A stretch of DNA of 64,000 bases from a virus (Duplodnaviria; Heunggongvirae; Uroviricota; Caudoviricetes): IMG/VR virus record IMGVR_UViG_3300017691_000005, positions 30,052 through 94,051 of that record; one strand, 5' to 3'. The notes beneath the pieces are model-generated. The model saw nothing but the letters and a program-made list of their open reading frames with translations, was not told the origin of the DNA and ran no database searches. Within the stretch, counting starts at the first letter, position 1, and each line of letters opens with the position of its first letter. Both the position numbers and the translations under genes were made by a program. Positions 30,585 through 45,329 of the stretch are shown one piece after another.

Positions 30585-30716
30585 CATACGCGCCCAGGGT
30601 TTGTGGGGGAACGTGGTCGGTGTCATAGGCTGTTGTAAAACCACGGAAGGTACAACCGTGAGAGTGCGACTAAGCCGGTCTTTAACGTTTGGAGGTTCGA
30701 TTCCTCCTTCGCGTAC
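30585..30716 (+). other. tRNA-like structured element (acceptor-like helix TACGCG/CGCGTA plus T-arm GGAGG-TTCGATT-CCTCC enclosing about 100 nt); unresolved
   Basis: canonical T-arm at 30689-30705 followed by CGCGTA complementary to 30595-30600; no standard cloverleaf found; internal hairpin CACGG-AAGGTACAA-CCGTG. Confidence 0.3.
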
Positions 30717-30855
30717 GTTAGTGAGTGCTATACAATCCGAAACTGATGGACAGCATAAATCAGTATAGGACAAAGCACAGAGTCAAAATTCATAAGCCGT
30801 GCTGTGGCTAGAAAAGTAGACAAGTAGGGGTTAGGAACCTGATGCACTAACACCC

Positions 30856-30927
30856 GTCCTAGTGGTATAACGGTTATTATTTTTGCTTGCCAAGCAAACG
30901 ACGCCAGTTCGACTCTGGTCTAGGACT
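30856..30927 (+). tRNA. tRNA-Gly (GCC)
   Basis: acceptor GTCCTAG/CTAGGAC, anticodon arm TTTGC-TTGCCAA-GCAAA, T-arm GCCAG-TTCGACT-CTGGT. Confidence 0.6.
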
Positions 30928-30944
30928 CAACCGAAAGGATTACA

Positions 30945-31190
30945 ATGATTACAGATTATTTTGGTCAGGAACTTCATAAGGGAGATCTCGTAACAGCGGC
31001 GGTTGCCAGTGGTAGATCCTCAGGAGGTCAAAGAGTTGGCATTTTAGTTAAAGAGCCTGAAGAGAAAAAGATGTTAACTATTGAACTTGTTCCTCCGCCT
31101 ACAAACGGTTATGATCGATCAACTGTTTCAGTAAATTACTCAAGATCCAAAGTAATAAAACTTCCCAAGGAGTATACCTTTCTGGTATAG
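30945..31190 (+). CDS. hypothetical protein
   Basis: 81 aa ORF with RBS AAAGGATTACAATG. Confidence 0.4.
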   Translation: MITDYFGQELHKGDLVTAAVASGRSSGGQRVGILVKEPEEKKMLTIELVPPPTNGYDRSTVSVNYSRSKVIKLPKEYTFLV

Positions 31191-31208
31191 TTCTCTATGG
31201 TGTCTGTG

Positions 31209-31279
31209 TTGTAATGGAAGCATGAGAGATTGTGTCCCTCTCGGAGACGGATCGTTACCGTCCAGACACACAGCGGCCA
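31209..31279 (+). tRNA. tRNA-His (GTG) (alternative reading Thr-TGT); non-canonical T-loop ATCGTTA
   Basis: perfect acceptor GTGTCTG/CAGACAC with an extra G at -1 (His-like), anticodon arm AGAGA-TTGTGTC-CCTCT (A31.C39), T-arm GACGG-ATCGTTA-CCGTC. Confidence 0.4.
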
Positions 31280-31339
31280 AGTGATGTATTAGGTACCGTG
31301 ATATCCGGTGGCTTGGTAATTGAAACCCTAATACTTTTA

Positions 31340-31445
31340 TATCGGGTCGATTGAATTCGTTTATCTTCGCCAATGATTGAAGGCTAGTGGTTCGACTCCA
31401 CGGCACAGGGATGGTTCCCATCGAATTCTTACACATATCTGATTT
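31340..31445 (+). ncRNA. inter-tRNA structured element (e), Y-RNA-like family member with T-arm-like hairpin
   Basis: GAATTCGTTTATC ... GTGG-TTCGACT-CCAC ... GGATGGTTCC ... CGAATTCTTACACATATC; GAATTCG/CGAATTC helix. Confidence 0.35.
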
Positions 31446-31447
31446 AT

Positions 31448-31519
31448 GGACTGTTAGCATAGATGGCAATGCGTTCGGTTGAAGCCCGAAAGAATAGGGA
31501 TCGTTACCCTGGCAGTCTA
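31448..31519 (+). tRNA. tRNA-Phe (GAA); non-canonical T-loop ATCGTTA
   Basis: acceptor GGACTGT/GCAGTCT, D-arm GCAT-AGATGGCA-ATGC, anticodon arm TTCGG-TTGAAGC-CCGAA, T-arm TAGGG-ATCGTTA-CCCTG. Confidence 0.55.
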
Positions 31520-31520
31520 C

Positions 31521-31560
31521 GTAACCCGGTTGAATGGCAGCCGGGTTTTTCTATGAGAGG
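31521..31560 (+). terminator. rho-independent terminator-like hairpin
   Basis: ACCCGG-TTGAATGGCAG-CCGGGT followed by TTTTT. Confidence 0.45.
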
Positions 31561-31568
31561 AGAGCCTA

Positions 31569-32447
31569 ATGTTCTGGCTCATTGTTTTTAGCGCTCTTGT
31601 AATTATTTTTCTTCTGGCTGTAGCAGCCGCTGTCATTACTAAATCCCCTGGCCCAAGGCTAGTAGCAGCACTAGTTCTAGTGATTGCACTAGTATTCACA
31701 GCATTTAATTCATTTACCACGGTTGGTGCTCGTAGCGTGGGTATTCAAACTGGATTTGGTAAGTACATGCAGACCCTTGATAATGGTTTCCACATCAAGG
31801 CGCCTTATTCCAGTGTTGAAGAGTTCAGCACTCAAGTTCAGTACCTTGACCTAAATGGTGAGGGTGATGCTGTTGCCGTGACATTCAAGGGCGGCGGCGG
31901 TGGTAATGTAAATGCTACGGTCCGCTGGCGTATCGATGCCAAGCAGGCTGAGAATCTTTGGAGTAAGTACCGTACATTTGAAGCGGTAAGGGATCAACTA
32001 GTGACTTCTTCTGCTAAGGATTCATTCCGAGTTGTTGTTGCCAACTACACTCCTAATGATGCTCGTAGTGGTGAGAACATTCGACCCATTACTGAGGCGG
32101 TAGTTGCTGACCTTTCCAAGAATCTCGCTAATGACGGTATTGTGATTGACTCTGTATCCATTTCTTCTCTTGGTCTAGATGCAAATAGTCAAGCAAGTCT
32201 TGACCGTATTGTTCAAGCCAATAATGATATTGAACGTGCTACCGCTGAACAGCAGAGGGCTCAGATTGATGCTGAGACTGCTCGTATCCGTCAGGAAACC
32301 GGCGCGCTCGCTCCTGAGGCTAATATTCGTTACTGCCTTGAACTGGTGAACAGTTGGGACGTTGCCAAGAATGGTAATCTTCCCGCGACATTTAACTGTG
32401 CGCTGACTGATCCTGCAAATATCACTCCCGTTCTCCCGGTACAGTGA
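31569..32447 (+). CDS. SPFH/band-7 (prohibitin/stomatin-like) membrane protein
   Basis: N-terminal TM helix, SPFH-type core, C-terminal coiled coil (AEQQRAQIDAETARIRQE). Confidence 0.65.
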   Translation: MFWLIVFSALVIIFLLAVAAAVITKSPGPRLVAALVLVIALVFTAFNSFTTVGARSVGIQTGFGKYMQTLDNGFHIKAPYSSVEEFSTQVQYLDLNGEGDAVAVTFKGGGGGNVNATVRWRIDAKQAENLWSKYRTFEAVRDQLVTSSAKDSFRVVVANYTPNDARSGENIRPITEAVVADLSKNLANDGIVIDSVSISSLGLDANSQASLDRIVQANNDIERATAEQQRAQIDAETARIRQETGALAPEANIRYCLELVNSWDVAKNGNLPATFNCALTDPANITPVLPVQ

Positions 32448-32548
32448 TGAAAGTATCAGCCACGATTTTTGGCGGCATAGTAATCGCAGTAGCAAGTTCA
32501 ATAGGCACTATCATGTATATAGGTAATAAAATGTTTGGACATTCCTGA
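32447..32548 (+). CDS. small hydrophobic membrane peptide (33 aa)
   Basis: MKVSATIFGGIVIAVASSIGTIMYIGNKMFGHS; TGATG overlap with the SPFH gene. Confidence 0.3.
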   Translation: MKVSATIFGGIVIAVASSIGTIMYIGNKMFGHS

Positions 32549-32709
32549 TGGCTATTGTCGAGTTTCAAGTACTCAAAACTTATACAGTTAATGGTCGAGT
32601 ATTTGAACATGGTCTCTATTCAGCCGATGATGAATGTGATCACAACGTTATCGGAGCAAATGGCGGCGGTAGGAAATGTACTAAATGCACCGGATGGTTC
32701 TGCTACTGA
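32548..32709 (+). CDS. small Zn-ribbon protein (53 aa)
   Basis: CDH...CTKCTGWFC; TGATG coupling. Confidence 0.3.
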   Translation: MAIVEFQVLKTYTVNGRVFEHGLYSADDECDHNVIGANGGGRKCTKCTGWFCY

Positions 32710-32734
32710 TTGACAAGTCCTGAGTAAGACTATA

Positions 32735-32803
32735 AACTGCTTACGCCCCTACTAGCGGATCTAGGTTGATGGCTACGAACCATTTCTCGGGAGTTCAACT
32801 CTC
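32735..32803 (+). tRNA. tRNA-Arg (ACG)
   Basis: perfect acceptor GCCCCTA/TAGGGGC, anticodon arm GATGG-CTACGAA-CCATT, T-arm GGGAG-TTCAACT-CTCCC. Confidence 0.55.
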
Positions 32804-32851
32804 CCTAGGGGCTCTTTTATAGTTTTAAAAGTACCGGCGTATAATCATTCC

Positions 32852-33007
32852 ATGAGGTACTTAGCACAAGTCATACTGGCGGTAGAGGTAGAAGCCTATC
32901 AAGTCAGTGATGCAAAAGAAGCAATAGAGGATTGTCTTAATATGGAGAATTGCGGAAGTCTTTCAGTGGTTGATCTAGAGATACAAGATATAGATGAACT
33001 TAAATGA
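32852..33007 (+). CDS. small acidic protein (51 aa)
   Basis: ORF MRYLAQVILAVEVEAYQVSD... Confidence 0.3.
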   Translation: MRYLAQVILAVEVEAYQVSDAKEAIEDCLNMENCGSLSVVDLEIQDIDELK

Positions 33008-33158
33008 ACTAAGCAATGTCCAGGTAGTTCAATGGTGTAATTCATGTAATGCTGACGAAGCGGTACATGTGATTGAAGTTGAACTAGATTGGGGTAAAGA
33101 GTCTTTGCAGATTTGTCACGGGTGCCTTAAAGAACTCAAGAAAAGAGGTTTGTTATGA
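32994..33158 (+). CDS. small Zn-ribbon protein (54 aa)
   Basis: CNSC...CHGC. Confidence 0.3.
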   Translation: MNLNELSNVQVVQWCNSCNADEAVHVIEVELDWGKESLQICHGCLKELKKRGLL

Positions 33159-33275
33159 ACGTGGGTACAATAGGTGCTATTTGCGGAATCGTAGCGCTGG
33201 TACTTGTGCTGGTCTTGGTTCTCTGATACAGTAGACATCACGTCCTGAGGATGACGTATTGAAAACTCCTCATAT

Positions 33276-33347
33276 GCCTTCGTGGTCCAATGGATACGAC
33301 AGAAGATTTCTACTCTTTTGATGGGAGTTCGATTCTCTCCGGGGGCG
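33276..33347 (+). tRNA. tRNA-Arg (TCT)
   Basis: acceptor GCCTTCG/CGGGGGC (two G-U), anticodon arm GAAGA-TTTCTAC-TCTTT, T-arm GGGAG-TTCGATT-CTCTC. Confidence 0.5.
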
Positions 33348-33392
33348 CGGGTTAGCAGTTGAAAAATACCGGCATCGCCAAAAACTGCGTAT

Positions 33393-33464
33393 GGACTCAT
33401 AGTGAAAAGGTTATCACAATCGCCTGTCGAGCGATTAGTGCGGGTTCGAGCCCCGCTGGGTTCG
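33393..33464 (+). tRNA. tRNA-Asp (GTC)
   Basis: acceptor GGACTCA/TGGGTTC, D-arm GTGA-AAAGGTTA-TCAC, anticodon arm ATCGC-CTGTCGA-GCGAT, T-arm GCGGG-TTCGAGC-CCCGC. Confidence 0.65.
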
Positions 33465-33579
33465 CGGTAACGCTGGCTGTGCAGCGGATACAATACTAGG
33501 ATATTCGCGTGAGAGAATCCTAGTGAAGAGAAGAGGGATGATTAATCACGCTCTACCCCTCGTAAATCACACAGCATAT

Positions 33580-33651
33580 GGGTCGTTCGTATAACGGTTA
33601 TTACTTGAGGCTCTTAACCTTAAAATCAGAGTTCGATTCTCTGGCGACCTA
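33580..33651 (+). tRNA. tRNA-Lys (CTT)
   Basis: acceptor GGGTCGT/GCGACCT, anticodon arm TGAGG-CTCTTAA-CCTTA, T-arm CAGAG-TTCGATT-CTCTG. Confidence 0.6.
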
Positions 33652-33797
33652 CGTAATAGCACAGCAGGGCAAGCGCTGAAAGACAAGTTCCGAGGGTACA
33701 GTTAAGATGGTCTCGCCCATTTGCCGGGGTGTAAAGAGACAACCTGAGAGGAATAATTGCTATTAACACTGCTATGATTTGCAAGTCGTAGCAGCAT

Positions 33798-33868
33798 GGG
33801 CTACAAGCATTAAGGTGATGCAACAGACTTTTAATCTGTGGAACAGGGATCGTTACCCTGGTGGCCTA
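33798..33868 (+). tRNA. tRNA-Lys (TTT); non-canonical T-loop ATCGTTA
   Basis: acceptor GGGCTAC/GTGGCCT, D-arm GCAT-TAAGGTG-ATGC, anticodon arm ACAGA-CTTTTAA-TCTGT, T-arm CAGGG-ATCGTTA-CCCTG. Confidence 0.55.
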
Positions 33869-33895
33869 CAATACACCTTCTAACAAGGGATTAAA

Positions 33896-34105
33896 ATGTT
33901 TATTTCTAGAAGATACAAATACCCTGAGTCACTAAAATTGTGGCGCAGTACGGGTTTTTATATGCATCTGCCTAAGAAGTACTATTATGGTTATGCTCGC
34001 ATTGTCACCAAGAAGAAACTTTACACTCTTTGGTATCACGGTAATCCTTATCGACCGGGTAAAATCTTTGAAGTATCTGACCGAACCAAACTCTTTGGAG
34101 GATGA
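33896..34105 (+). CDS. hypothetical protein
   Basis: 69 aa ORF. Confidence 0.35.
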   Translation: MFISRRYKYPESLKLWRSTGFYMHLPKKYYYGYARIVTKKKLYTLWYHGNPYRPGKIFEVSDRTKLFGG

Positions 34106-34497
34106 CAATGCCTACTAATTGGGTTTACAAGCCTTATAGTTATAACTGGCGGTATGGATGGAAGAAAAACCTCAAGAACCTGGTTGATTATCCCGGAAAG
34201 ATTAAAACTCACATAGTAGGCCGGGTTGTTAAAGGCTACTCTTGGTATGACTGGATTAACTTTGATGATTATCTTTCTAGTGTCATCATATCTGGCCTCA
34301 AGGATTTCAAGAATAATAGTCATGGATATCCTGGCGAATTGACCTTAGAAGAGTGGAATCGTCGCCTTGATATTATGATCGAAGGATTCACCATTATTAA
34401 TAATGGATGGTCTTATAAAAGAACTGAAGACCAGAAGCGTACTGTTCGTCTCGCTAAGTTTTATTTGATGTATCACTTTGAAAGTCTTTGGGATTGA
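34102..34497 (+). CDS. hypothetical protein
   Basis: 131 aa ORF. Confidence 0.45.
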   Translation: MTMPTNWVYKPYSYNWRYGWKKNLKNLVDYPGKIKTHIVGRVVKGYSWYDWINFDDYLSSVIISGLKDFKNNSHGYPGELTLEEWNRRLDIMIEGFTIINNGWSYKRTEDQKRTVRLAKFYLMYHFESLWD

Positions 34498-34512
34498 GAG
34501 TATGATTTTCAT

Positions 34513-34764
34513 ATGAAAACACAATTATATCCAGAGCCAGAATGTACCTGTATGAGAGTATGGCTTGCCGTCATTCCACCCCCACCATGCCCGGTTCACG
34601 GTCAAGCCTATATGTTAAAAGTAAGCAATATGGTTTCATCTAGTTTAGATTGTAAAACCATCAAAACTAATATGTTAACTATTAAAGATATTGCCGGTTA
34701 TTCAATTACGACAAATAGTATTGTTAATGGATCAATTAGGACTCGCTACCTTGACGGTCTGTAG
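34513..34764 (+). CDS. hypothetical protein
   Basis: 83 aa ORF. Confidence 0.35.
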   Translation: MKTQLYPEPECTCMRVWLAVIPPPPCPVHGQAYMLKVSNMVSSSLDCKTIKTNMLTIKDIAGYSITTNSIVNGSIRTRYLDGL

Positions 34765-34813
34765 TAGATCATGTATGCTCAGTAACAACACCGGCCCGGT
34801 GTAAAGGGCACAT

Positions 34814-34884
34814 GGCGTAGACAGCGGGATGCTGGGGCGTGACTGTAAATCACTACCATGAAGGTTCGAGTCCTTCCTGCGCTA
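34814..34884 (+). tRNA. tRNA-Tyr (GTA), short/atypical D and variable regions
   Basis: acceptor GGCGTAG/CTGCGCT, anticodon loop CTGTAAA on stem GTGA/TCAC, T-arm GAAGG-TTCGAGT-CCTTC. Confidence 0.45.
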
Positions 34885-34963
34885 CTTGATCAGATTTCGA
34901 ATATGATCTAGACATTCTCATGGTTTAGTGCGCCTGAGATGAGTCGATAAAAATAGCACGCCA

Positions 34964-35034
34964 GCCGGGTTAGTTTAATGGTAGAACATAAGACTCATAT
35001 CCTTAGAACAGTGGTTCGATTCCACTACTCGGTA
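34964..35034 (+). tRNA. tRNA-Met (CAT)
   Basis: acceptor GCCGGGT/ACTCGGT, D-arm GTTT-AATGGTA-GAAC, anticodon loop CTCATAT, T-arm AGTGG-TTCGATT-CCACT. Confidence 0.55.
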
Positions 35035-35042
35035 CTTGCGGG

Positions 35043-35112
35043 GATGGAGAAATAGTGTCTCGCTAGGCTCATAACCTAGAGATCACCTGTTGCGAGTACA
35101 GGCCACGCTACC
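35043..35112 (+). pseudogene. tRNA-Met-like (CAT) element with encoded CCA but an unpairable acceptor stem (pseudo-tRNA or atypical)
   Basis: D-arm GAGA-AATAGTG-TCTC, anticodon arm CTAGG-CTCATAA-CCTAG, T-arm-like CCTGT-TGCGAGT-ACAGG, 3' end CCACGCT-A-CCA; the 5' segment GCGGGGA does not pair with the 3' acceptor strand. Confidence 0.3.
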
Positions 35113-35129
35113 AATTTGTAACTACAACG

Positions 35130-35474
35130 ATGGAGTTTGTAATGTTTGACATTCCTGATGATCACTCTGGTCCCTACGTCATTGTGGAACTAGTAAGCCA
35201 TCATAATATCAAGCCAGTTCGTTATGTAGCGGATTTCAATATTGCCACGTATCTAATTAAGGTTGTTTATAACACAGGCCATCACAGACTTATGCAAGAA
35301 TCAGACTTTGCTATTTATAAGGCTGAGGCTGACAAGCGTTATAGAACCTTCCTTCAAAGCATTAAGCATCTATCGGATGAAGAGATTAAAAATGGTGGCT
35401 GCCAGGTCCAGGGCAACCACCGCACCAATCCAGAAACTTTTCCCTATATTTACGCGGCAGTATCGATTCCGTGA
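35130..35474 (+). CDS. hypothetical protein
   Basis: 114 aa ORF. Confidence 0.35.
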   Translation: MEFVMFDIPDDHSGPYVIVELVSHHNIKPVRYVADFNIATYLIKVVYNTGHHRLMQESDFAIYKAEADKRYRTFLQSIKHLSDEEIKNGGCQVQGNHRTNPETFPYIYAAVSIP

Positions 35475-35700
35475 CGCTTCATTAGTGCGATAGTGTTACG
35501 GGCGCTAGCACCATTGGCGGCAGGAGTAGAGCCAACGTAAATCTGCTGGCCCTGCGGACCTCGCCACACGAGGTGCTTGTTGCCAGTGATGTTAATCGTC
35601 CATCCTTCCTTTAGAGCCTGCTTGGCGATCTTGCGCCACTGGCGGGGGATGCTGGTCATCTCTGCTGGCTTGTTCGTCATAAGGGATACAGTACTGCCCA
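35450..35700 (-). CDS. HicA-like toxin (YcfA/HicA family mRNA interferase) homolog, lone minus-strand gene
   Basis: AKQALKEGWTINITGNKHLVWRGPQGQQIYVGSTP...TIALMKRHGI matches the HicA pattern (GW...GSHH...P...); local GC about 55%, higher than the surroundings. Confidence 0.45.
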
Positions 35701-37047: not shown

Positions 37048-37171
37048 CTTAGGAAGTTGATAGTTCCTAAAGGTGTTACGGTGTTCTACTATAATCAAAC
37101 CGCGCTCGGATGATGCGACAGTTCATCAAAGGAAAGAAGTTGCATTGCTATCGTGCAAAAACTTTCCGCCC

Positions 37172-37246
37172 GCCCACGTATCGGGCCAGTTTCCTAAACT
37201 GTGCTACCGTAGTAGGATCAGGCGAGTTCGAATCTCGCCGTGGGCT
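37172..37246 (+). other. tRNA-like gene with canonical acceptor and T-arm but unresolved core
   Basis: perfect acceptor GCCCACG/CGTGGGC, T-arm GCGAG-TTCGAAT-CTCGC; the D/anticodon region cannot be folded canonically by eye. Confidence 0.3.
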
Positions 37247-39484: not shown

Positions 39485-39558
39485 GGGGAATTCGTTCAAT
39501 GGTAGGACAGTTGCTTTGCAAGCAATCGACAGGGGTTCGACTCCCCTATTCTCCACCA
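39485..39558 (+). tRNA. tRNA-Ala (TGC), CCA encoded
   Basis: acceptor GGGGAAT/ATTCTCC, anticodon arm GTTGC-TTTGCAA-GCAAT, T-arm AGGGG-TTCGACT-CCCCT, 3' ACCA. Confidence 0.6.
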
Positions 39559-40064: not shown

Positions 40065-40065
40065 T

Positions 40066-40476: not shown

Positions 40477-40648
40477 CTGGACTCGATGGTTCAAAGACCC
40501 TCCAATTGTTATTGACGGTTATAAATACACTCAAGAAGGTGTACCTCTTTGTGCTTGTAAACACGCTCGAAATGAACATATTGGTGTTTGCTGGAAAATG
40601 TTTTGCGCTTGCACAAACTTCACTCAGGCTAGAGTTATGAATGGATGA
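40466..40648 (+). CDS. small Cys/His-rich protein
   Basis: 60 aa ORF. Confidence 0.3.
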   Translation: MGIDWTRWFKDPPIVIDGYKYTQEGVPLCACKHARNEHIGVCWKMFCACTNFTQARVMNG

Positions 40649-40889
40649 TCCAGATTGGGATTGTTTAGATTGTCAGTGTGACACTCATTTAGAATATTAT
40701 ATGGTTAAGGACAAATTGTGGAAGAAATACGGTGCGGGTGAAGCCATGTTGTGCATCGGTTGTTTAGAAGTTAGGATGAGTCGTCAACTAGAACCTAATG
40801 ATTTCACTAACTACCCAATCAACAATCCTTCTTTTTGGAAAAAATCTAATCGCTTGATCAGCCGACTGACAGGAGTATTCGATGATTGA
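40641..40889 (+). CDS. Zn-finger protein
   Basis: CLDCQCDTH...CIGC. Confidence 0.35.
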   Translation: MDDPDWDCLDCQCDTHLEYYMVKDKLWKKYGAGEAMLCIGCLEVRMSRQLEPNDFTNYPINNPSFWKKSNRLISRLTGVFDD

Positions 40890-41403
40890 CACTCGTAATG
40901 TTATTGATTATTACAAGGGTTGGGAGAACGAGTTTATTGTTGATCATCTGGATACTTCTCGACTCCCTATGTCCGTTGTAACTGAAAACGTTTCAGGAGA
41001 TTTTCATAAGGCCAATATTCTTAGAACTGCTGAGGGGTTCAATCTAAAGGAGTTTTGGATTGTTGGTTCTAAGAAGTGGGACCGCCGTGCAGCCGTTGGA
41101 GCCCACCACAGGATGCCGGTACGTTATTCTGCTAGCCTCGCAGACATGGTGTTCAGCCTTGATGCGGAGCCATACATCGTCACACTAGATAACGTTCCAG
41201 GCGCTGTGTCCCTTTACGATTACGAGTGGAAGCCGAACACAATGATGATTGTTGGTGAGGAGCAGCGCGGGGTAAGTAATGACGCTATTGATATTGCCAA
41301 CGATGTAGTGTATATTCCTATGAGGGGCGCAGTGAGATCATTCAGTGTTTCTACTGCTGCCGGTATTGCCATGTCATCTTATGTGCAGCAAATGATTAAA
41401 TAA
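40882..41403 (+). CDS. SpoU/TrmH-family RNA 2'-O-methyltransferase
   Basis: SPOUT motifs IVGEEQRGVS ... SFSVSTAAGIAMSSY. Confidence 0.6.
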   Translation: MIDTRNVIDYYKGWENEFIVDHLDTSRLPMSVVTENVSGDFHKANILRTAEGFNLKEFWIVGSKKWDRRAAVGAHHRMPVRYSASLADMVFSLDAEPYIVTLDNVPGAVSLYDYEWKPNTMMIVGEEQRGVSNDAIDIANDVVYIPMRGAVRSFSVSTAAGIAMSSYVQQMIK

Positions 41404-41410
41404 CTGAATA

Positions 41411-41497
41411 TGGAGCGGTGGCTGAGTCTGGTCTAAGGCGTGCGACTGCTAATCGCATGGGTTTAATCGCCCCGCAGGTTCGAATCCTGTTCGCTCC
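41411..41497 (+). tRNA. tRNA-Ser (GCT), class II
   Basis: acceptor GGAGCGG/TCGCTCC, anticodon arm TGCGA-CTGCTAA-TCGCA, long variable arm, T-arm GCAGG-TTCGAAT-CCTGT. Confidence 0.6.
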
Positions 41498-41528
41498 GCA
41501 TTAAAATAGATTCAGATATAATTAATTC

Positions 41529-41951
41529 ATGATAAGAGATACCGTACTGTATAAACCTATTACCGTGTTGCTATGTTTGGCATCATTTAGAACGTTTTTT
41601 TACGGCTTAGGTTTTGCAGTAGGTTCCATTGAAGTAAAAGGTCTGTTGGTGTGGTCTTATATTGCAGCGACTGGTCTCAATCCTTTTTTGTTTGGGTGGA
41701 TTGTTCTACTTGTTGCTTCGGCATCAATTATATCTTTATTCTTCTGTTCATATAGACTTACAAATTATTTTGTGACAGGTCAAGCGCTGGTATGGATGTA
41801 TGTGACTTTGTGTTACCTGCTAAATTTAGACATCATATTAGCATTAGTATCAGGACTATCAACGTGTTTAATCATAGGTTATTTGAACTTTATTTTTGTT
41901 CAGTTTTCAAACGTTATGCCAAAAAGATCTAGGAAGTCAACTCCAATCTAG
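41529..41951 (+). CDS. multi-pass membrane protein
   Basis: 140 aa, four hydrophobic helices. Confidence 0.4.
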   Translation: MIRDTVLYKPITVLLCLASFRTFFYGLGFAVGSIEVKGLLVWSYIAATGLNPFLFGWIVLLVASASIISLFFCSYRLTNYFVTGQALVWMYVTLCYLLNLDIILALVSGLSTCLIIGYLNFIFVQFSNVMPKRSRKSTPI

Positions 41952-41976
41952 GCTTGACCCGAACGGGTGAACGTGC

Positions 41977-42432
41977 TTGAATACTCGTATTCCAACAAGG
42001 GAGGCACAATGTTTACTCGTCCTTCATACCACGACTACATCTTCTCCAAGGGTCATATTTCAAATAAAGGAGAAGTCGTTTCTTAATATTGCCATTCGTG
42101 CTGCTGAAGATTCTGAATGCTCTCAGCGCCACGGGGCAGTGGTTGTCAAGTCTGGTAGCGTCCATTCCATTGCTACCAATCGGTACAGAAACTCGCCCAC
42201 CTTTGTTCCCAGCGATAATCCTGAGGGCAAGGGAACAATTTTCTCCTTCCATGCTGAGGGTAGAGCAATCGACCGGGCCGTTGGAGATACAATCTTTGTT
42301 GCTAGAGTAAGCCCCGCCGGAGAGCCAAGACTCTCTATGCCATGTGTCATGTGCTTTAACCAAATTGAGCAGGCGGGGTTTAAGAAGATTGTTTTCACAA
42401 CCAACAATGGCGCAGCCAAGATCTATCTCTAG
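41977..42432 (+). CDS. dCMP/cytidine deaminase family protein (start uncertain)
   Basis: HAEGRAI...PCVMCFNQI zinc-binding deaminase motifs; TTG start at 41977 lacks a good RBS. Confidence 0.55.
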   Translation: MNTRIPTREAQCLLVLHTTTTSSPRVIFQIKEKSFLNIAIRAAEDSECSQRHGAVVVKSGSVHSIATNRYRNSPTFVPSDNPEGKGTIFSFHAEGRAIDRAVGDTIFVARVSPAGEPRLSMPCVMCFNQIEQAGFKKIVFTTNNGAAKIYL

Positions 42433-42440
42433 GGAGTACG

Positions 42441-42983
42441 ATGCAAACGTTTCTAACTAGCAAAGATTTTAGAACCTCTGCTGAACAATTGGACAACAAG
42501 AGACTCAACAACCAACTGAATGAATCTCGGGTAATTCTTGCAGCACTTGCCAAGAAGGCTAACGGTGAGACAAAGGTTCCTTGGAGTAATCATCCTGCCC
42601 CCAAAATGTGGGAGGGGTATGAAGATGCATTTATGCAATACAACCTTGCTCACGCTTATGAAGCACAAGACCGAGGTATTAAGATCGATGTAAATTGGGA
42701 TGCCATCGTAAGTATTTATGAGGATACTTTTGCATCTATGTTTCGGGGTTTGTTCTTCCCTCCGTGGTATGTAGATTCAGTTCAACTTGACAAAGTTCTT
42801 ACCACCCACCAAGCCAATCTTTATCGTAAAGATCCTGATTTCTATGCTGAGTGGAAGTGGATTAGCGATTGGCTCTATGAGAATGAGTCATGGAGTGTTT
42901 GTTGCCCTGTAAGGAATAAGAAGAACGGCGCTTGGGTGAAGCGTTGTGATTATTACTGGCCTACACATAAGGAGACATCATGA
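42441..42983 (+). CDS. hypothetical protein; weak resemblance to pyrimidine-dimer DNA glycosylase (DenV-like) N-terminal pattern
   Basis: LDNKRLNNQLNESRVILAAL ... WSNHPAPKMWEGYE pattern reminiscent of endonuclease V family; unverified. Confidence 0.3.
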   Translation: MQTFLTSKDFRTSAEQLDNKRLNNQLNESRVILAALAKKANGETKVPWSNHPAPKMWEGYEDAFMQYNLAHAYEAQDRGIKIDVNWDAIVSIYEDTFASMFRGLFFPPWYVDSVQLDKVLTTHQANLYRKDPDFYAEWKWISDWLYENESWSVCCPVRNKKNGAWVKRCDYYWPTHKETS

Positions 42984-43354
42984 CAAAGATTGATTATGAC
43001 ACAGCAGTAAAGGATGTTCAGGAAATTATCAAGGGTCGAGAAGACTATGTTTACGTCAACCCTTTTGGAAAGAAGGCGGGTGGCGAGGATGGGCTGAATT
43101 GCTACTACTTCGATCCTAATAACGGTCAACCTTCATGTATTGTAGGACACGTTTTTGCCAAGCATGGTGTAACTTTTGAAGATGTTGGTGTAATGAATGA
43201 CAATTGTATTATGGATGCAATTTATGTAGCCGGTATTGATCTAGATTATCAAACAAGGTATTTTCTTGAGGCTATTCAAGAGCGTCAAGATAGTGGTGTA
43301 CCCTGGGGCGAATCTGTTAGTCGAACTATGAAAGAGGACTTTAGTGGCGATTAA
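42980..43354 (+). CDS. hypothetical protein
   Basis: 124 aa ORF. Confidence 0.4.
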   Translation: MTKIDYDTAVKDVQEIIKGREDYVYVNPFGKKAGGEDGLNCYYFDPNNGQPSCIVGHVFAKHGVTFEDVGVMNDNCIMDAIYVAGIDLDYQTRYFLEAIQERQDSGVPWGESVSRTMKEDFSGD

Positions 43355-43547
43355 ACCCAACACATGTGTCCATTTCAAGTGGATAGACGACGAGCATTGT
43401 GAAATTTACATTGATGAGAATTATGTAGGGGCGCTCGACCATGAAATTCATGGATGGGCGGGTGTTGAAGATATAGTGCAAATGCTTAATCGTATGATCC
43501 TCATCAAAGGATGGGACGTAAAAGTAGAAGGAGACCGGGGTGTCTAA
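43344..43547 (+). CDS. hypothetical protein
   Basis: 67 aa ORF. Confidence 0.35.
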   Translation: MAIKPNTCVHFKWIDDEHCEIYIDENYVGALDHEIHGWAGVEDIVQMLNRMILIKGWDVKVEGDRGV

Positions 43548-43758
43548 TCGAGAAACTGAAAATTATCAAGAAAACCTAGAACTAATTCTTGCTGTAACAA
43601 AAACACTCAATAGTGATATCTTTCCAGAGAGCAAGGATTATTATGTTCGAGTAGAACTAATTGAAGCCGGGACTCACCGACGAGCCGGTAGTTGGAATGA
43701 CGAGATTGCTAATGACTGTTGGTCTTTTGCATGGGATTGGGAGGATCAAAACAAATGA
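43540..43758 (+). CDS. hypothetical protein
   Basis: 72 aa ORF. Confidence 0.35.
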   Translation: MSNRETENYQENLELILAVTKTLNSDIFPESKDYYVRVELIEAGTHRRAGSWNDEIANDCWSFAWDWEDQNK

Positions 43759-44051
43759 CAACTATCGAAGAAATTAAAGCCTACGTAAAACAAAAAGGAG
43801 GATATTGCACTTGGGATGATATCCTACATCAATTTAATGGCCTCTCTATTGAAGAGAACATAATTGGTGATCGACGTTGGTATACTGATTATGAATATGT
43901 TGCTAAATTCGGAGACAAGTTTTTTAGAATGTTTTACGGAGTAGGTTCTACTGAGTATCAAGAGAATGAAGAAATGGAATATGCTATCGAAACACTCGCA
44001 GAAGTTGAGCCGGTAGAAGTTAAAGTTATTAAGTATAAGGTTAAGAAGTGA
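43755..44051 (+). CDS. hypothetical protein
   Basis: 98 aa from MTTIEEIK, ATGA overlap. Confidence 0.4.
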   Translation: MTTIEEIKAYVKQKGGYCTWDDILHQFNGLSIEENIIGDRRWYTDYEYVAKFGDKFFRMFYGVGSTEYQENEEMEYAIETLAEVEPVEVKVIKYKVKK

Positions 44052-44227
44052 TGTATCAACGTGATCCATCGATAGTGTGTGAAGATGCTGAAAATGAAAT
44101 GTTCAGATACCTTGAGGACGAAATTCAAAGCGGGTATATATCTCGCGACCTTCTAAATGCATATATTCGAAAATATTATGAATGGTATGATCAATGGATT
44201 GAGTGGTGTGAACAGGGGGATATGTGA
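44051..44227 (+). CDS. hypothetical small protein
   Basis: 58 aa, GTGATG coupling. Confidence 0.3.
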   Translation: MYQRDPSIVCEDAENEMFRYLEDEIQSGYISRDLLNAYIRKYYEWYDQWIEWCEQGDM

Positions 44228-44348
44228 CAGACAGCGTAGATATGTTCGGGCCTGGTATTGCTGAAAAATGTTATCTACCAGGTTGTGAGAAATGGATTAC
44301 TGGTGCTTCAGACTATTGCAGTCCAGAACATGAGGAGATTAGTAGAAA

Positions 44349-44531
44349 ATGACATTTTCGAAGCGTATTGATGCTGTTATTGAAACCCTACGGGATATTC
44401 ATGATGATGCTGAAGATTGCGGTGCCAGAGCGGTGTACCATAAGATTCAAGAGGCTCTAGGCCCGCTTGAAAGTGCGTCCTACGCAGGAGATCAGTACCT
44501 TGATGGGACACTGGAATATGCTGATAATTGA
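44349..44531 (+). CDS. hypothetical protein
   Basis: 60 aa ORF. Confidence 0.35.
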   Translation: MTFSKRIDAVIETLRDIHDDAEDCGARAVYHKIQEALGPLESASYAGDQYLDGTLEYADN

Positions 44532-44532
44532 C

Positions 44533-44745
44533 CAAAACGAGGAGTAGTGGCAGACGTGGAGCGAAAGCGCGGCGAGCGCGTCGACTACTGGTGGCCCGAC
44601 TACCGCGACCGCACTGAGAGGCGAACGGCCCTGGTCATCGGCGGCGATCGGAGGAAGGCGCGCCTCCGCACGGCAGAGAACGAGGTCATCACGAAGCCCT
44701 GGGGCGAAGTGCTGACGCACGACGAGCCCTGACCCGAGCGACCGG
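44533..44745 (+). other. high-GC mini-cassette 1 (conserved 5' and 3' boundaries, one small ORF)
   Basis: about 68% GC interior vs about 40-45% flanks; 5' boundary ACGAGGAGTAGTGGCAGACGTGGAGCG, 3' boundary CCTGACCCGAGCGACCGG. Confidence 0.5.
44547..44732 (+). CDS. small Arg/Asp-rich protein encoded by high-GC cassette 1
   Basis: GTG start 6 nt after GAGGAG; MADVERKRGERVDYWWPDYRDRTERRTALVIGGDRRKARLRTAENEVITKPWGEVLTHDEP. Confidence 0.35.
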   Translation: MADVERKRGERVDYWWPDYRDRTERRTALVIGGDRRKARLRTAENEVITKPWGEVLTHDEP

Positions 44746-44835
44746 TATAGGTTGACACAGCCCTAAGCATCAACTAAGATATGAAGTACCAGAAACCGCC
44801 GGGTTTGCTCACGAAATCTTACGGCTTCTGGTCTT

Positions 44836-44918
44836 GCTGGTGTGGTGGAATATGGTATACACGTATGATTTAGGCTCATATGCCGCAAGGCTTGCAGGTT
44901 CGATTCCTGTCACCAGTA
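44836..44918 (+). tRNA. tRNA-Leu (TAG), class II
   Basis: acceptor GCTGGTG/CACCAGT, anticodon arm TATGA-TTTAGGC-TCATA, variable stem GCC-GCAA-GGC, T-arm GCAGG-TTCGATT-CCTGT. Confidence 0.55.
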
Positions 44919-44941
44919 CATAATTTAATATGGACCGATAG

Positions 44942-45013
44942 TGAAATGGCTATCACGCTTCCTTGACTCGGAAGTAATTCGGGTTCGAATCCCGGTCGGT
45001 CTACTGCGCGGTA
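44942..45013 (+). tRNA. tRNA-Val (GAC)
   Basis: acceptor GGACCGA/TCGGTCT, D-arm GTGA-AATGGCTA-TCAC, anticodon arm CTTCC-TTGACTC-GGAAG, T-loop TTCGAAT. Confidence 0.55.
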
Positions 45014-45074
45014 GTGTAAGTAGGATAAGCGCTGTAAGTGAAGGATGATGCGGTAACATCTACCGGAGCGAATC

Positions 45075-45160
45075 AGTGAAAAATCCTAGGCGAGTTTACC
45101 GACTCGTTAGCACCCCGGCCTCATAAGCCGGAAGTGAGGTGTCAAATCCTCCCAAGCAAC
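45075..45160 (+). other. tRNA-like element with CTCATAA (CAT) anticodon-arm hairpin and terminal ACCA; no pairable acceptor
   Basis: CGAGT-TTACCG-ACTCG hairpin, CCGGC-CTCATAA-GCCGG hairpin, GAGG-TGTCAAAT-CCTC T-arm-like hairpin, 3' CAAGCAACCA; resembles element 35043-35112. Confidence 0.25.
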
Positions 45161-45163
45161 CAT

Positions 45164-45246
45164 GCCCTTATGGTGAAATTAGGCAGACACGATTGATTCA
45201 AAATCAATTGCCGCAAGGCGTACCGGTTCGAGTCCGGTTAGGGGTA
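45164..45246 (+). tRNA. tRNA-Leu (CAA), class II
   Basis: acceptor GCCCTTA/TAGGGGT, anticodon arm ATTGA-TTCAAAA-TCAAT, variable stem GCC-GCAA-GGC, T-arm ACCGG-TTCGAGT-CCGGT. Confidence 0.55.
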
Positions 45247-45250
45247 CTCT

Positions 45251-45329
45251 GGGGTAGACGGGTTATTCGACGTTGGTAAAGCCGTATACGGAACCACGAC
45301 GGACTAGGGTTCGACTCCCTACTACTCCA
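45251..45329 (+). other. tRNA-like gene (acceptor plus canonical T-arm) with non-canonical core containing the palindrome CCGTATACGG
   Basis: acceptor GGGGTAG/CTACTCC, T-arm TAGGG-TTCGACT-CCCTA; internal region forms a long hairpin instead of D/anticodon arms. Confidence 0.3.

What the first reader, a model, noticed from the sequence alone, without database searches (positions are those of the whole stretch)
30585..45329. Several tRNA-like genes with canonical acceptor/T-arm but aberrant cores, and two CAT-loop tRNA-like fragments ending in CCA
Three elements have perfect 7-bp acceptor stems and textbook T-arms, but their intervening sequence does not form D and anticodon arms. One is 30585-30716, an acceptor-like helix plus T-arm enclosing about 100 nt. 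Another is 37172-37246, with acceptor GCCCACG/CGTGGGC. The third is 45251-45329, whose core is the palindrome CCGTATACGG. Two further elements, 35043-35112 and 45075-45160, each have a Met-like CTCATAA anticodon hairpin and a second hairpin, then end in ACCA, yet lack a pairable 5' acceptor strand. These could be pseudo-tRNAs or tRNA-derived regulatory RNAs. They could also be mimics that engage Ro or other tRNA-binding factors, or possibly processed or split tRNAs.
Basis: seen in the sequence. Interest (0 to 1): 0.5.

Follow-up and report, generated by a model that had tools for sequence, protein, structure and literature searches.

The report
Odd tRNA-like genes in phage
The five flagged elements in this actinophage tRNA island are five different things: a tag-less mini-tmRNA, a member of an apparently undescribed and almost always unannotated family of phage tRNAs that lack the D-arm, an ordinary initiator-like tRNA-Met, a copy of that tRNA with a large insert, and one orphan insertion of unknown meaning.

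Summary
The window is the tRNA island of an uncultured Stanwilliamsviridae-like phage (relatives infect Streptomyces).

- **45251-45329:** a tmRNA reduced to its tRNA-like domain. It keeps G3:U70 and A73 and has no tag ORF. This kind is known from phage DS6A.
- **37172-37246:** a conserved tRNA-like RNA with acceptor, T-arm and a canonical anticodon loop (CCU), but no D hairpin. A covariance model built from it finds relatives in Streptomyces phages Belfort, Pepperwood and Mildred21, in several metagenomic phages, and in a crAss-like phage. Anticodons are CCU, CCG, UCU and ACG (Arg) and GAU (Ile). ARAGORN calls none. GenBank leaves almost all unannotated.
- **35037-35113:** the initiator-like second gene of a conserved tRNA-Met pair.
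- **45005-45162:** a paralogue of that tRNA with about 91 nt inserted inside the D-stem.
- **30588-30716:** part of a 213-nt indel absent from the closest relative. It has no homologues and remains unresolved.

Two RNAs with the build of Ro-associated tRNA mimics (YrlA-like) lie elsewhere, at about 27.35 and 27.7 kb, just upstream of the Ro60 gene.

The parts
45251..45329 (+). E3: CDS-less tmRNA (tRNA-like domain only). Acceptor GGGGTAG/CTACTCC with G3:U70, A73, no encoded CCA. About 21 nt (hairpin CCGTATACGG) stand where the mRNA-like domain and pseudoknots would be.
   Evidence: Rfam tmRNA RF00023 scores 42.9 bits (threshold 47), E 5.5e-16. Both termini align and 21 nt replace 314 model positions. 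ARAGORN finds no tmRNA. L035:1-78 is identical. L034:1220-1298 has a compensatory G4-C69 to A-U change and keeps G3:U70.
37172..37246 (+). E2: D-arm-less tRNA-like gene with anticodon loop TTCCTAA (CCU, Arg). It has a 7-bp acceptor, U8-A9-U10, an extended anticodon arm with a bulged U, a 12-nt GG-containing 3' connector, a canonical T-arm and discriminator U.
   Evidence: No ARAGORN or Rfam call. With homologues L032:449-524 and L033:245-322, 21 of 21 pairs are kept and 7 show double changes. Models R1 and R2 find family members at 41-85 bits, against 38.5 bits or less for ordinary tRNAs. On A10, 16 of 21 pairs covary and 0 of 500 shuffles reach the observed values.
37049..37171 (+). Conserved leader between tRNA-Cys and E2. 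It holds a hairpin after tRNA-Cys, a nearly invariant 60-nt block containing TATAAT, and a GGAAAG...CTTTCC stem that abuts E2.
   Evidence: Alignment and alifold of the window, L032 and L033. Unique in the window. A 1-nt indel in L033 shifts the reading frame, so it is not coding. No Rfam hit.
35037..35113 (+). E4: initiator-like tRNA-Met(CAT) with encoded CCA, second gene of a tandem Met pair. It has U1xU72 and G5xA68 mismatches, T-loop TGCGAGT and a D-loop without GG.
   Evidence: ARAGORN calls it at default settings. Rfam tRNA 28.5 bits. Orthologues sit in the same tandem position in L001, L019, L021 and Belfort, where both genes are annotated tRNA-Met.
45005..45162 (+). E5: initiator-like tRNA paralogue filling the whole Val-Leu spacer. 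Acceptor TGCGCGG/CCAAGCA pairs 5 of 7. D-stem GTGT/AGCAC encloses about 91 nt. Then come anticodon arm CCGGC-CTCATAA-GCCGG, T-like arm GAGG-TGTCAAAT-CCTC, and A73 plus CCA.
   Evidence: The first 12 nt equal the 5' end of Belfort's second tRNA-Met. The unconstrained MFE of the 158 nt is a cloverleaf with a giant D-domain. L034:974-1131 differs at 6 sites, including a compensatory D-stem pair, G-C to U-A. No ARAGORN, Rfam or BLAST hit.
45018..45108 (+). Structured insertion inside the D-stem of E5: a long irregular stem plus the hairpin GGCGAGTTTACCGACTCGTT.
   Evidence: Folds. No similarity elsewhere in the window or in any fetched locus except L034.
30504..30716 (+). 213-nt indel directly 3' of tRNA-Glu(CTC), flanked by GTAC on both sides. 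It contains E1.
   Evidence: The closest relative L013 (Ro60 92% identical) reads ...gtgggggtac|gttagtgagtgc..., with this stretch absent. No other copy in the window or loci. No match in INPHARED.
30588..30716 (+). E1: orphan tRNA-like element with a 6-bp terminal helix, a possible D-like hairpin CCCA/TGGG, an irregular arm of about 80 nt where the anticodon arm should be, and a canonical T-arm at 30691-30707.
   Evidence: Sequence. MFE z-score 0.00. ARAGORN calls it only at a lowered threshold, with a 40-nt 'intron'. No Rfam hit. Pattern scans found no homologue.

Best explanation
The finding lumps five unrelated tRNA-derived genes in the tRNA island of a Stanwilliamsviridae-like actinophage.

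**(1) E3 is a tmRNA stripped to its tRNA-like domain.**
- Shown: it keeps the alanine identity set (G3:U70, A73), the tmRNA-specific 5' GG..UUCGACG and 3' CGGAC motifs, and the T-arm. It has no resume codon, tag ORF or pseudoknots.
- Inferred: it is charged with alanine and binds SmpB and EF-Tu but cannot support tagging. It would then act as a competitor or decoy of host trans-translation, as reported for the DS6A form.

**(2) E2 is one member of a family of phage tRNAs without a D hairpin.**
- Shown: the anticodon arm is nested inside what would be the D-stem. This gives one long arm of about 9-10 stacked pairs. A conserved 3' connector (UAAY..GG) sits where the variable loop is. Acceptor, long arm and T-arm covary. 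All loops are Y-U-NNN-A-A, with Arg (CCU, CCG, UCU, ACG) or Ile (GAU) anticodons that are not duplicated by canonical tRNAs in the same locus.
- Inferred: they fold into an L-like shape, with the connector GG docking on the T-loop. They are aminoacylated and decode.

**(3) E4 is the ordinary orthologue of the initiator-like tRNA-Met of this phage group.**

**(4) E5 is a duplicate of that tRNA carrying a structured domain of about 91 nt inside its D-stem.** It has a weakened acceptor and T-loop. It is either a tRNA-scaffolded non-coding RNA or a young pseudogene.

**(5) E1 is a lineage-specific tRNA-cassette remnant, or an expanded tRNA-like RNA, of unknown function.**
For: **Phage identity and synteny.** DnaE, Ro60 and band-7 genes are present, and Streptomyces phage Belfort has the same gene order.

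**E3.**
- Rfam tmRNA alignment of both termini, 42.9 bits.
- G3:U70 and A73 read from the sequence.
- Same acceptor GGGGTAG/CTACTCC as Belfort's full tmRNA.
- Compensatory change in L034 and an identical copy in L035.
- Precedent and inhibitory activity of the DS6A form (PMC4131195, PMC11915505).

**E2 family.**
- 100% of cells paired, 7 double changes.
- 95% of cells paired, 16 of 21 pairs with double changes, 0 of 500 shuffles reach this, slid controls 35-46% paired.
- Further members.
- MAFFT plus RNAalifold, not fitted to the model, also gives an acceptor, one 7-nt-loop hairpin and a T-arm, with no D hairpin.
- Non-redundant anticodons.
- ARAGORN at default settings of 10.
- The UCU type is in 26 GenBank phage records: 23 carry no feature, 2 are labelled 'tRNA-OTHER', 1 lies under a hypothetical CDS. 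The GAU type is in 78 records.

**E4.**

**E5.**

**E1.**
Against: - No expression, end-mapping, aminoacylation or binding data exist for any element.
- E3 scores below Rfam's gathering threshold. Only 64 kb of a 133.8-kb contig was seen, so a full tmRNA elsewhere in the genome is not excluded. Its three copies are nearly identical, so conservation is weak evidence.
- For the E2 family, the alignment used for the strongest covariation counts was fitted to the model.
- The proximal 3-bp helix is the weakest part of the E2 structure (83% of cells paired).
- ArgRS in bacteria uses A20 of the D-loop (own knowledge), which has no obvious equivalent here.
- Discriminators vary (U, G, A).
- Non-redundancy of anticodons was checked only within the fetched stretches, not whole genomes.
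- E5 rests on two 96%-identical copies and a single compensatory pair.
- E1 has no comparative support at all.
Confidence: 0.7

Rival explanations
1. All five are decaying pseudo-tRNAs, the debris of rapid tRNA-cassette turnover, and have no function.
For: Cassette turnover is evident. E1 is a clean indel. Between the window and L034, tRNA-Val and tRNA-Leu(tag) differ strongly while E5, Leu(caa) and E3 are nearly identical. E1 has no thermodynamic signal. E5 has two acceptor mismatches and an aberrant T-loop. E4 has lost U55 and G18.
Against: The E2 family keeps every helix through many double substitutions, across at least 6 phage lineages and more than 100 GenBank genomes. Its anticodon loops stay canonical. 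E3 and E5 each show a compensatory change. E4 has orthologues in all relatives examined.
Confidence: 0.15
2. The D-arm-less RNAs (E2 family) are not decoders. They are decoys or anti-defence RNAs that present a tRNA-Arg or tRNA-Ile anticodon loop to a host tRNA-targeting nuclease or other tRNA-binding factor, without entering translation.
For: Arg anticodons dominate, in 8 of 10 members. The same phage group carries RNA ligase and polynucleotide kinase genes, which are typical of tRNA-repair conflicts (Belfort annotation). Discriminator U73 in the window lineage differs from the A73 of canonical Arg(CCT) tRNAs in relatives. The D-loop A20 identity element for ArgRS is missing (own knowledge).
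Against: The anticodons complement the canonical set of each locus rather than duplicate it. Acceptor and T-arm are under strict pairing constraint. A D-arm-lacking tRNA can be charged and used by E. coli translation (PMC11551756).
Confidence: 0.2
3. E1, and perhaps E5, is a Ro60-bound Y-like RNA: a tRNA-shaped module fused to a Ro-binding stem.
For: E1 lies 0.8 kb downstream of the Ro60 ORF on the same strand. UGGUCG (30614-19) can pair with CGACUA (30667-72), resembling the vertebrate GGUCCGA/UUGACUA Ro site (motif from PMC4201824). L006 and L007 also carry an uncalled tRNA-like element just downstream of Ro60.
Against: The closest Ro60-carrying relative lacks E1. The Rfam YrlA model does not hit it, and the bacterial GNCGAAN0-1G motif is absent. 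Two RNAs with YrlA-like architecture already precede Ro60. The motif match is post hoc, and the same loose pattern occurs twice more in the window. E5 has no such motif.
Confidence: 0.1
4. E3 is a degenerate tRNA-Ala or a dead remnant of a deleted tmRNA gene, not an active tRNA-like-domain RNA.
For: It scores below the Rfam threshold. A superficially similar element in L003 (14749-14820) turned out to be readable as an aberrant tRNA-Ala(UGC). Relatives carry full tmRNAs, so E3 could be a recent deletion product.
Against: E3 has no UGC anticodon loop, and the window has its own tRNA-Ala(TGC) at 39485. The tmRNA-specific UUCGACG and CGGAC motifs are intact. The acceptor change in L034 is compensatory and G3:U70 is kept.
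Confidence: 0.15

Closest known systems
CDS-less (TLD-only) tmRNA of mycobacteriophage DS6A; similar about 65-nt forms in some plastids and in jakobid mitochondria
   Same: Phage-encoded tmRNA reduced to acceptor, D-loop analogue, a short closing hairpin and T-arm, with no tag reading frame (PMC4131195, PMC11915505). E3 has the same build and keeps G3:U70 and A73.
   Different: No detectable sequence similarity to anything in the phage collection by BLAST. The host clade and phage family differ. E3 shares its acceptor with the full tmRNAs of its own relatives, so it probably arose independently by internal deletion. Inhibition of host tmRNA has been shown only for the DS6A form.
Mitochondrial D-arm-lacking tRNAs (mammalian and nematode mt-tRNA-Ser) and the engineered 'mini HisT'
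   Same: A tRNA with acceptor, anticodon arm and T-arm but no D hairpin, which can still be charged and used by ribosomes (PMC7609411, PMC11551756).
   Different: The E2 family is phage-encoded and would work with a bacterial cytosolic translation system. It keeps a full canonical T-arm. It has a short 3-nt 5' linker and a long conserved 3' connector carrying GG. Its anticodon arm is lengthened by a proximal helix. Anticodons are Arg and Ile, not Ser. Function is not shown.
Canonical bacterial and phage tRNA (Rfam RF00005)
   Same: 7-bp acceptor, 5-bp T-stem with TTCGAAT-type loop, 7-nt anticodon loop with U33 and A37, and location inside tRNA arrays.
   Different: E2 has no D hairpin, and neither the Rfam tRNA model nor ARAGORN calls it. 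E5 has about 91 nt inside the D-stem. E1 has about 80 nt in place of the anticodon arm.
YrlA-type bacterial and phage Y RNAs (Rfam RF02553; Chen et al. 2014)
   Same: tRNA mimics encoded next to Ro60, also in actinophages. The window has two RNAs of this architecture upstream of Ro60.
   Different: None of the five flagged elements has the permuted YrlA topology (T-arm, closed acceptor hairpin, D-arm, with the RNA ends in the anticodon-side stem). None has the GNCGAA motif.
Bacterial initiator tRNA-fMet
   Same: E4 and its orthologues have a CAU anticodon, a 5' xGCGGGG-type start, a mismatch at 1:72, A73 and often an encoded CCA.
   Different: The mismatch is UxU or UxC rather than CxA. Only two of the three G-C pairs close the anticodon stem in E4. 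The T-loop is UGCGAGU. E5 has a Watson-Crick pair at 1:72.

Membership tests
tmRNA (RF00023), CDS-less / TLD-only subclass - E3 | Acceptor stem with G3:U70 and discriminator A73 (alanine identity) | tested here: met
   GGGGTAG/CTACTCC followed by A. Kept in L034 despite a 4:69 double change.
tmRNA (RF00023), CDS-less / TLD-only subclass - E3 | tmRNA-specific TLD sequence: 5' GGGG..GA..GG.UUCGACG, and 3' CGGAC followed by T-arm and CUCCA | tested here: met
   cmscan alignment of both termini, 42.9 bits, E 5.5e-16. This is below the gathering score of 47 because the middle is missing.
tmRNA (RF00023), full-length form - E3 | mRNA-like domain with resume codon and tag ORF, plus pseudoknots | tested here: not met
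   Only 21 nt lie between the TLD halves. ARAGORN finds no tmRNA or tag. E3 is therefore filed as the CDS-less subclass, not as a working tmRNA.
tmRNA (RF00023), CDS-less / TLD-only subclass - E3 | Alanylation, SmpB binding, interference with trans-translation | not testable with these tools
   Known only for the DS6A form (PMC11915505).
Canonical tRNA (RF00005) - E2 | 7-bp acceptor stem and 5-bp T-stem with a 7-nt T-loop | tested here: met
   All pairs are kept with covariation.
Canonical tRNA (RF00005) - E2 | Anticodon stem with a 7-nt loop, U33 and purine 37 | tested here: met
   Loops UUCCUAA, CUCCGAA, CUUCUAA, CUACGAA and CUGAUAA in 10 members.
Canonical tRNA (RF00005) - E2 | D-arm hairpin between position 9 and the anticodon stem | tested here: not met
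   Only 3 nt (UAU) precede the long arm. RNAalifold on an unfitted alignment predicts no D hairpin. The Rfam tRNA model gives no hit at E up to 10. ARAGORN of 10. The forced cloverleaves from ARAGORN -mt are discordant: 3 of 10 members, with anticodons ACC, CGC and UGC.
D-arm-less tRNAs (mitochondrial type) - E2 | Functional decoding tRNA lacking the D hairpin | tested here: inconclusive
   The architecture is met. Decoding is inferred only from canonical loops and non-redundant anticodons. No aminoacylation or ribosome data exist. No common descent with the mitochondrial forms is implied.
Bacterial initiator tRNA - E4 | CAU anticodon and absence of a Watson-Crick pair at 1:72 | tested here: met
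   UxU in E4, UxC in Belfort and L021, CxU in L019.
Bacterial initiator tRNA - E4 | Three consecutive G-C pairs closing the anticodon stem | tested here: inconclusive
   E4 has two (GG/CC). L001's orthologue has three or more.
YrlA / Y RNA (RF02553) - E1 | Encoded within about 4 kb of Ro60 on the same strand | tested here: met
   Ro60 ORF at 28137-29789. E1 at 30588-30716.
YrlA / Y RNA (RF02553) - E1 | Match to the YrlA model, GNCGAAN0-1G motif, and permuted T-arm / acceptor hairpin / D-arm order | tested here: not met
   No YrlA hit at E up to 10. The motif is absent. The topology is not permuted.
YrlA / Y RNA (RF02553) - E1 | Conserved together with Ro60 in relatives | tested here: not met
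   Absent from L013, whose Ro60 is 92% identical. No homologue found anywhere.

The most novel reading that the evidence does not exclude
Streptomyces phages, and at least one crAss-like phage, encode and use a structurally new class of cytosolic tRNA. The D hairpin is absent, the anticodon arm is nested in the D-stem, and a GG-bearing connector replaces the D-loop. This class supplies Arg and Ile decoding. It has gone unnoticed because tRNA finders miss it. A further speculative reading links it to Ro60. PNPase limited a D-arm-less tRNA in E. coli (PMC11551756). The Ro60 and Y RNA module that these phages carry might protect such RNAs from that kind of quality control.
Probability: 0.45. Interest if true: 0.85.

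Novelty: new variant of a known kind. Interest (0 to 1): 0.7.

Why it matters
- **A challenge to the cloverleaf rule.** If the D-arm-less RNAs are working tRNAs, they contradict the current statement that all bacterial-system tRNAs are cloverleaves (PMC11551756). [quoted passage not shown] That question has so far been approached only with mitochondrial or engineered tRNAs.
- **An annotation gap.** More than 100 deposited Streptomyces phage genomes hold at least one such gene with no feature on it. Their tRNA repertoires and codon-supply analyses are therefore incomplete.
- **A possible anti-host function.** The tag-less tmRNA adds an independent phage example of a likely anti-trans-translation RNA.
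- **One locus, many scaffolds.** The window holds two YrlA-like RNAs, a TLD-only tmRNA, a D-arm-less tRNA and a D-domain-expanded initiator-like tRNA. It shows how freely phages reuse the tRNA scaffold.

Tried and rejected
- **Whole region against INPHARED.** Megablast of 30-46 kb found no match. Distant blastn of E5, E3 and the E1 insertion also found nothing.
- **E1 as a Y RNA.**
  - The Rfam YrlA model gave no hit, even on a 3-kb slice.
  - The motif scan TGGTCGGTG...GTGCGACTAAG in IMG/VR gave one chance match inside a coding-looking stretch.
  - The hairpin scan of IMG/VR found nothing, and the arm-plus-T-arm scan of GTDB found nothing.
  - Alignment to the L006 and L007 post-Ro60 elements was unconvincing.
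- **E1 as an intron-bearing tRNA-Asp.** ARAGORN gives this only at -ps80 with the intron option. I rejected it: 40-69 nt is too short for a group I intron (own knowledge), and a tRNA-Asp(GTC) already exists at 33393.
- **More relatives of the window.**
  - The metagenome scan with Ro60 found none close enough to inform on E1.
  - A viral scan with the protein next to E2 found nothing.
- **The L003 'TLD'.** I first took L003:14749-14823 (Rfam tmRNA 27.8 bits) for a second TLD-only RNA. It can be read as an aberrant tRNA-Ala(UGC), and ARAGORN calls its L011 homologue as one.
- **A canonical-length cloverleaf for E2** (Gly ACC). I rejected it because ARAGORN -mt gives discordant anticodons in 3 of 10 members and nothing in 7. 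It also ignores the covarying hairpin.
- **The E2 leader as an ORF.** An ORF runs through the leader and E2, but a 1-nt indel in L033 shifts the frame.
- **The conserved E2 leader elsewhere.** Scans of IMG/VR and GTDB found nothing.
- **A strict family pattern in IMG/VR.** It returned only a Comrade-sized contig, so the pattern was too strict to measure breadth.
- **Not run.** Protein structure tools were not needed.

Full report
**Context**

The window carries genes only on the + strand. They include a DnaE-type polymerase, a Ro60 (TROVE plus vWA) protein at 28137-29789, a band-7 protein and tail genes. ARAGORN tRNAs between 24.5 and 45.4 kb.

There is no near-identical phage in INPHARED. The polymerase and Ro60 are 45% and up to 64% identical to those of Streptomyces phages of the Stanwilliamsviridae. 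Belfort shows the same layout: polymerase, terminase, a tRNA island with Ro60, a tandem tRNA-Met pair, tmRNA, band-7, RNA ligase and kinase. The Ro60 protein occurs on a 133.8-kb metagenomic contig.

Closer relatives came from protein look-ups:
- L013, L032 and L034 are three contigs from one Logan sample, with Ro60 92% identical.
- L014, L015/16, L019-21, L033 and L035 are more distant.

**E3, 45251-45329**

Rfam's tmRNA model aligns to both ends. The 5' part reads GGGGUAGA-CGGGUuaUUCGACGUUG. The 3' part reads CGACGGACUAGGGUUCGACUCCCUACUACUCCAC. Only 21 nt stand in for 314 model positions. The score is 42.9 bits (threshold 47), E about 1e-15.

The acceptor has G3:U70 and the discriminator is A. 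There is no tag ORF, and ARAGORN reports no tmRNA. The window has a separate tRNA-Ala(TGC).

L035 carries an identical copy. L034 carries one in which G4-C69 has become A-U while G3:U70 stays. The acceptor GGGGTAG/CTACTCC is the same as in Belfort's 278-nt tmRNA. Relatives L003, L019, Belfort and Blueeyedbeauty have full tmRNAs with tags. E3 therefore looks like an internal-deletion derivative.

A TLD-only tmRNA is on record for mycobacteriophage DS6A and is reported to inhibit host tmRNA in E. coli (PMC4131195, PMC11915505). E3 is a new member of that kind. Its activity is inferred, not shown.

A look-alike in L003 (Rfam tmRNA 27.8 bits) proved readable as an aberrant tRNA-Ala(UGC), so I do not count it. 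L001:5953-6023 may be another TLD-only RNA but was not scored by Rfam.

**E2, 37172-37246**

Between them there is one hairpin, CCAGT-TTCCTAA-ACTG(T)G, which is an anticodon arm with loop UUCCUAA (CCU, Arg). There is no D hairpin.

Homologues next to the same acetyltransferase gene (L032, L033) keep all 21 pairs. Seven pairs carry changes on both sides. In L033 the loop becomes CUCCGAA (CCG, also Arg).

A covariance model built from these three sequences (R1) separated a group at 41-46 bits from ordinary tRNAs, which scored 28 bits or less. The group comprises:
- two genes in L024 (identical in L025),
- two genes in L021,
- one gene in Belfort, directly after its annotated tRNA-Arg(gcg) and itself unannotated.

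A second model (R2) added members in three more phages:
- Pepperwood, between two CDS and unannotated;
- Mildred21, annotated 'tRNA-OTHER';
- a crAss-like Kehishuvirus, unannotated, between tRNA-Trp and tRNA-Met.

Anticodon loops across the family are CCU, CCG, UCU (four times), ACG (twice) and GAU (twice). All have the form Y-U-NNN-A-A.

On the model-fitted alignment, 95% of cells pair and 16 of 21 pairs show double changes. None of 500 shuffles reaches this, and slid controls give 35-46% paired. An unfitted MAFFT plus RNAalifold run gives an acceptor, one hairpin with a 7-nt loop and a T-arm, again with no D hairpin. It also shows invariant G7-U8-A9-U10, UAA and GG.

The common plan is as follows:
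- a 7-bp acceptor;
- the linker UAU;
- a proximal helix of about 3 bp;
- a bulge;
- a 5-6 bp anticodon stem;
- the 7-nt loop;
- a 12-14 nt connector (C/G)AUAAY-GG-AUGAU;
- the T-arm.

In effect the anticodon arm sits inside the D-stem, and a D-loop-like string follows it.

ARAGORN at default settings calls none of the ten. Its mitochondrial mode forces three of them into cloverleaves with discordant anticodons. Rfam's tRNA model misses E2 and gives Mildred21's copy 29.5 bits, just over its threshold.

In each locus the D-arm-less anticodon is one that the canonical tRNAs there lack. BLAST finds the UCU type in 26 GenBank phage records: 23 carry no feature, 2 are labelled 'tRNA-OTHER', and 1 lies under a hypothetical CDS. 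It finds the GAU type in 78 records, with no feature in any listed row.

The literature I could search places D-arm-less tRNAs only in mitochondria (PMC7609411). It also states that all known bacterial tRNAs are cloverleaves. The same paper shows that E. coli can use an engineered D-arm-less tRNA once PNPase is mutated (PMC11551756). I found no description of this phage family.

**E4, 35037-35113**

ARAGORN calls tRNA-Met(CAT) at default settings, and Rfam gives 28.5 bits. The 5' strand TGCGGGG (35037-43) pairs with CCACGCT at 5 of 7 positions, with U1xU72 and G5xA68 mismatches.

A tandem pair of CAT tRNAs is conserved in L001, L019, L021, Belfort and Blueeyedbeauty. The second gene always has a 1:72 mismatch and A73, and often an encoded CCA. 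E4 shares its anticodon arm with L021's copy and its D-arm with L019's.

It is an ordinary gene with a drifted elbow (T-loop UGCGAGU, D-loop without GG).

**E5, 45005-45162**

The whole spacer between tRNA-Val(gac) and tRNA-Leu(caa) is one element. Its first 12 nt, TGCGCGGTAGTG, equal the 5' end of Belfort's second tRNA-Met.

The unconstrained minimum-energy fold of the 158 nt is a cloverleaf:
- an acceptor pairing 5 of 7;
- a D-stem GUGU/AGCAC enclosing about 91 nt, folded as a long irregular stem plus a hairpin;
- an anticodon arm CCGGC-CUCAUAA-GCCGG;
- a 4-bp T-like arm with an 8-nt loop;
- then A-CCA.

L034 has the only other copy. It differs at six sites, two of which form a compensatory D-stem pair. 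No tool, Rfam family or BLAST search recognises it. It may be a functional tRNA-scaffolded RNA or a young pseudogene. I cannot decide which.

**E1, 30588-30716**

Only the T-arm is textbook. The terminal helix is 6 bp. The fold is no more stable than shuffled sequence (z = 0.00).

In the closest relative, tRNA-Glu(CTC) runs straight into the sequence that follows E1 in the window. So 30504-30716 is a 213-nt indel bounded by GTAC. I found no homologue in the loci, IMG/VR, GTDB or INPHARED.

A UGGUCG/CGACUA pairing recalls the vertebrate Ro site, but it is post hoc. The bacterial motif and topology are absent. My best guess is a tRNA cassette with its spacer, gained or lost by recombination and now highly derived.

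**Ro-linked mimics**

Two RNAs with YrlA architecture lie just upstream of Ro60, at about 27355-27460 and 27684-27790. The architecture is a 5' strand, a T-arm, a closed acceptor-like hairpin, a D-arm-like GUAUGGUGUAAUGGCAGCAC, and a 3' strand.

They are conserved in L013-L016 and L001 and show covariation. A neighbouring L001 copy scores 39 bits on Rfam YrlA. This matches published phage YrlA RNAs (PMC4201824). The Ro idea therefore points to elements outside the finding.

**Verdict**

- One is ordinary (E4).
- One is a new member of a known rare kind (E3).
- One led to a widespread, unannotated and apparently undescribed structural class of phage tRNA-like genes (E2).
- Two remain open (E5, E1).

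Noticed in passing
window 27355-27460 and 27684-27790: Two YrlA-like (Y RNA) tRNA mimics lie directly upstream of the Ro60 ORF (28137-29789). Each has a T-arm, a closed acceptor-like hairpin and a terminal stem. The second also has a D-arm-like segment. They are conserved in L013, L014, L015/16 and L001. The Rfam YrlA model does not reach them.
   Followed up: partly
window 27808-27894: Likely tRNA-Ser(UGA) with a long variable arm. ARAGORN misses it, and Rfam's tRNA-Sec model scores it 36.4 bits. L014 has a called tRNA-Ser(tga) in the same position.
   Followed up: partly
window 32745-32812: tRNA-Arg(ACG)-like gene with a perfect acceptor GCCCCTA/TAGGGGC, loop CTACGAA and a tiny D-arm (CTAG-CGGAT-CTAG). 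ARAGORN and Rfam both miss it. A TTGACA-17-TAAACT promoter-like site ends at 32738.
   Followed up: partly
window 34814-34884: tRNA-Tyr(GTA) with a short variable arm, unusual for a bacterial-type Tyr tRNA. ARAGORN calls it only at a lowered threshold, and Rfam tRNA gives 28.1 bits.
   Followed up: no
window 37075-37170: Block of about 95 nt upstream of E2 that is nearly invariant in three phages whose flanking tRNAs diverge. It contains TATAAT, the hairpin GATGA-TGCGACAGT-TCATC and a covarying GGAAAG/CTTTCC stem. It could be a promoter with a leader or a separate RNA.
   Followed up: partly
L038:295-372 (Kehishuvirus sp. 'tikkala', OQ198717 95577-95654): A crAss-like Bacteroides phage carries an unannotated D-arm-less GAU-type element about 80% identical to the Streptomyces-phage version. 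It sits between annotated tRNA-Trp and tRNA-Met.
   Followed up: partly
L006:11846-11940 and L007:7649-7743: An uncalled tRNA-like element (acceptor GGGGGT/GCCCTC, canonical T-arm, non-cloverleaf core) lies about 260 nt downstream of Ro60 in two 138-kb viral contigs.
   Followed up: partly
L001:5953-6023: Possible second TLD-only tmRNA-like gene. It has GGGCTAA/TTAGTCC with G3:U70 and A73, plus GGATCGATGG and a closing hairpin. Rfam does not score it.
   Followed up: no
L003:19007-19076 and L003:17985-18055: Further aberrant tRNA-like genes in a relative that ARAGORN does not call. One has a UCG (Arg) loop and one a CAU (Met) loop.
   Followed up: no
L005:7856, L006:21307, L015:6056, L019:7491 and 7736, L020:6525: ARAGORN 'tRNA-Pyl(cta)' calls, that is amber-suppressor-type tRNAs, recur in relatives. 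The window has none.
   Followed up: no
window 44836-45004 versus L034:813-973: tRNA-Leu(tag) and tRNA-Val(gac) differ strongly between the window and its closest relative. The adjacent E5, Leu(caa) and E3 block is 96-98% identical. This points to cassette-wise replacement within the tRNA island.
   Followed up: no
window 29787-29901: Strong GC-rich hairpin (GGGAGGCGGGGCC...GGCCCCGCCTC) right after the Ro60 stop codon, picked up as a weak Rfam ar35 match. It is probably a bidirectional terminator.
   Followed up: no
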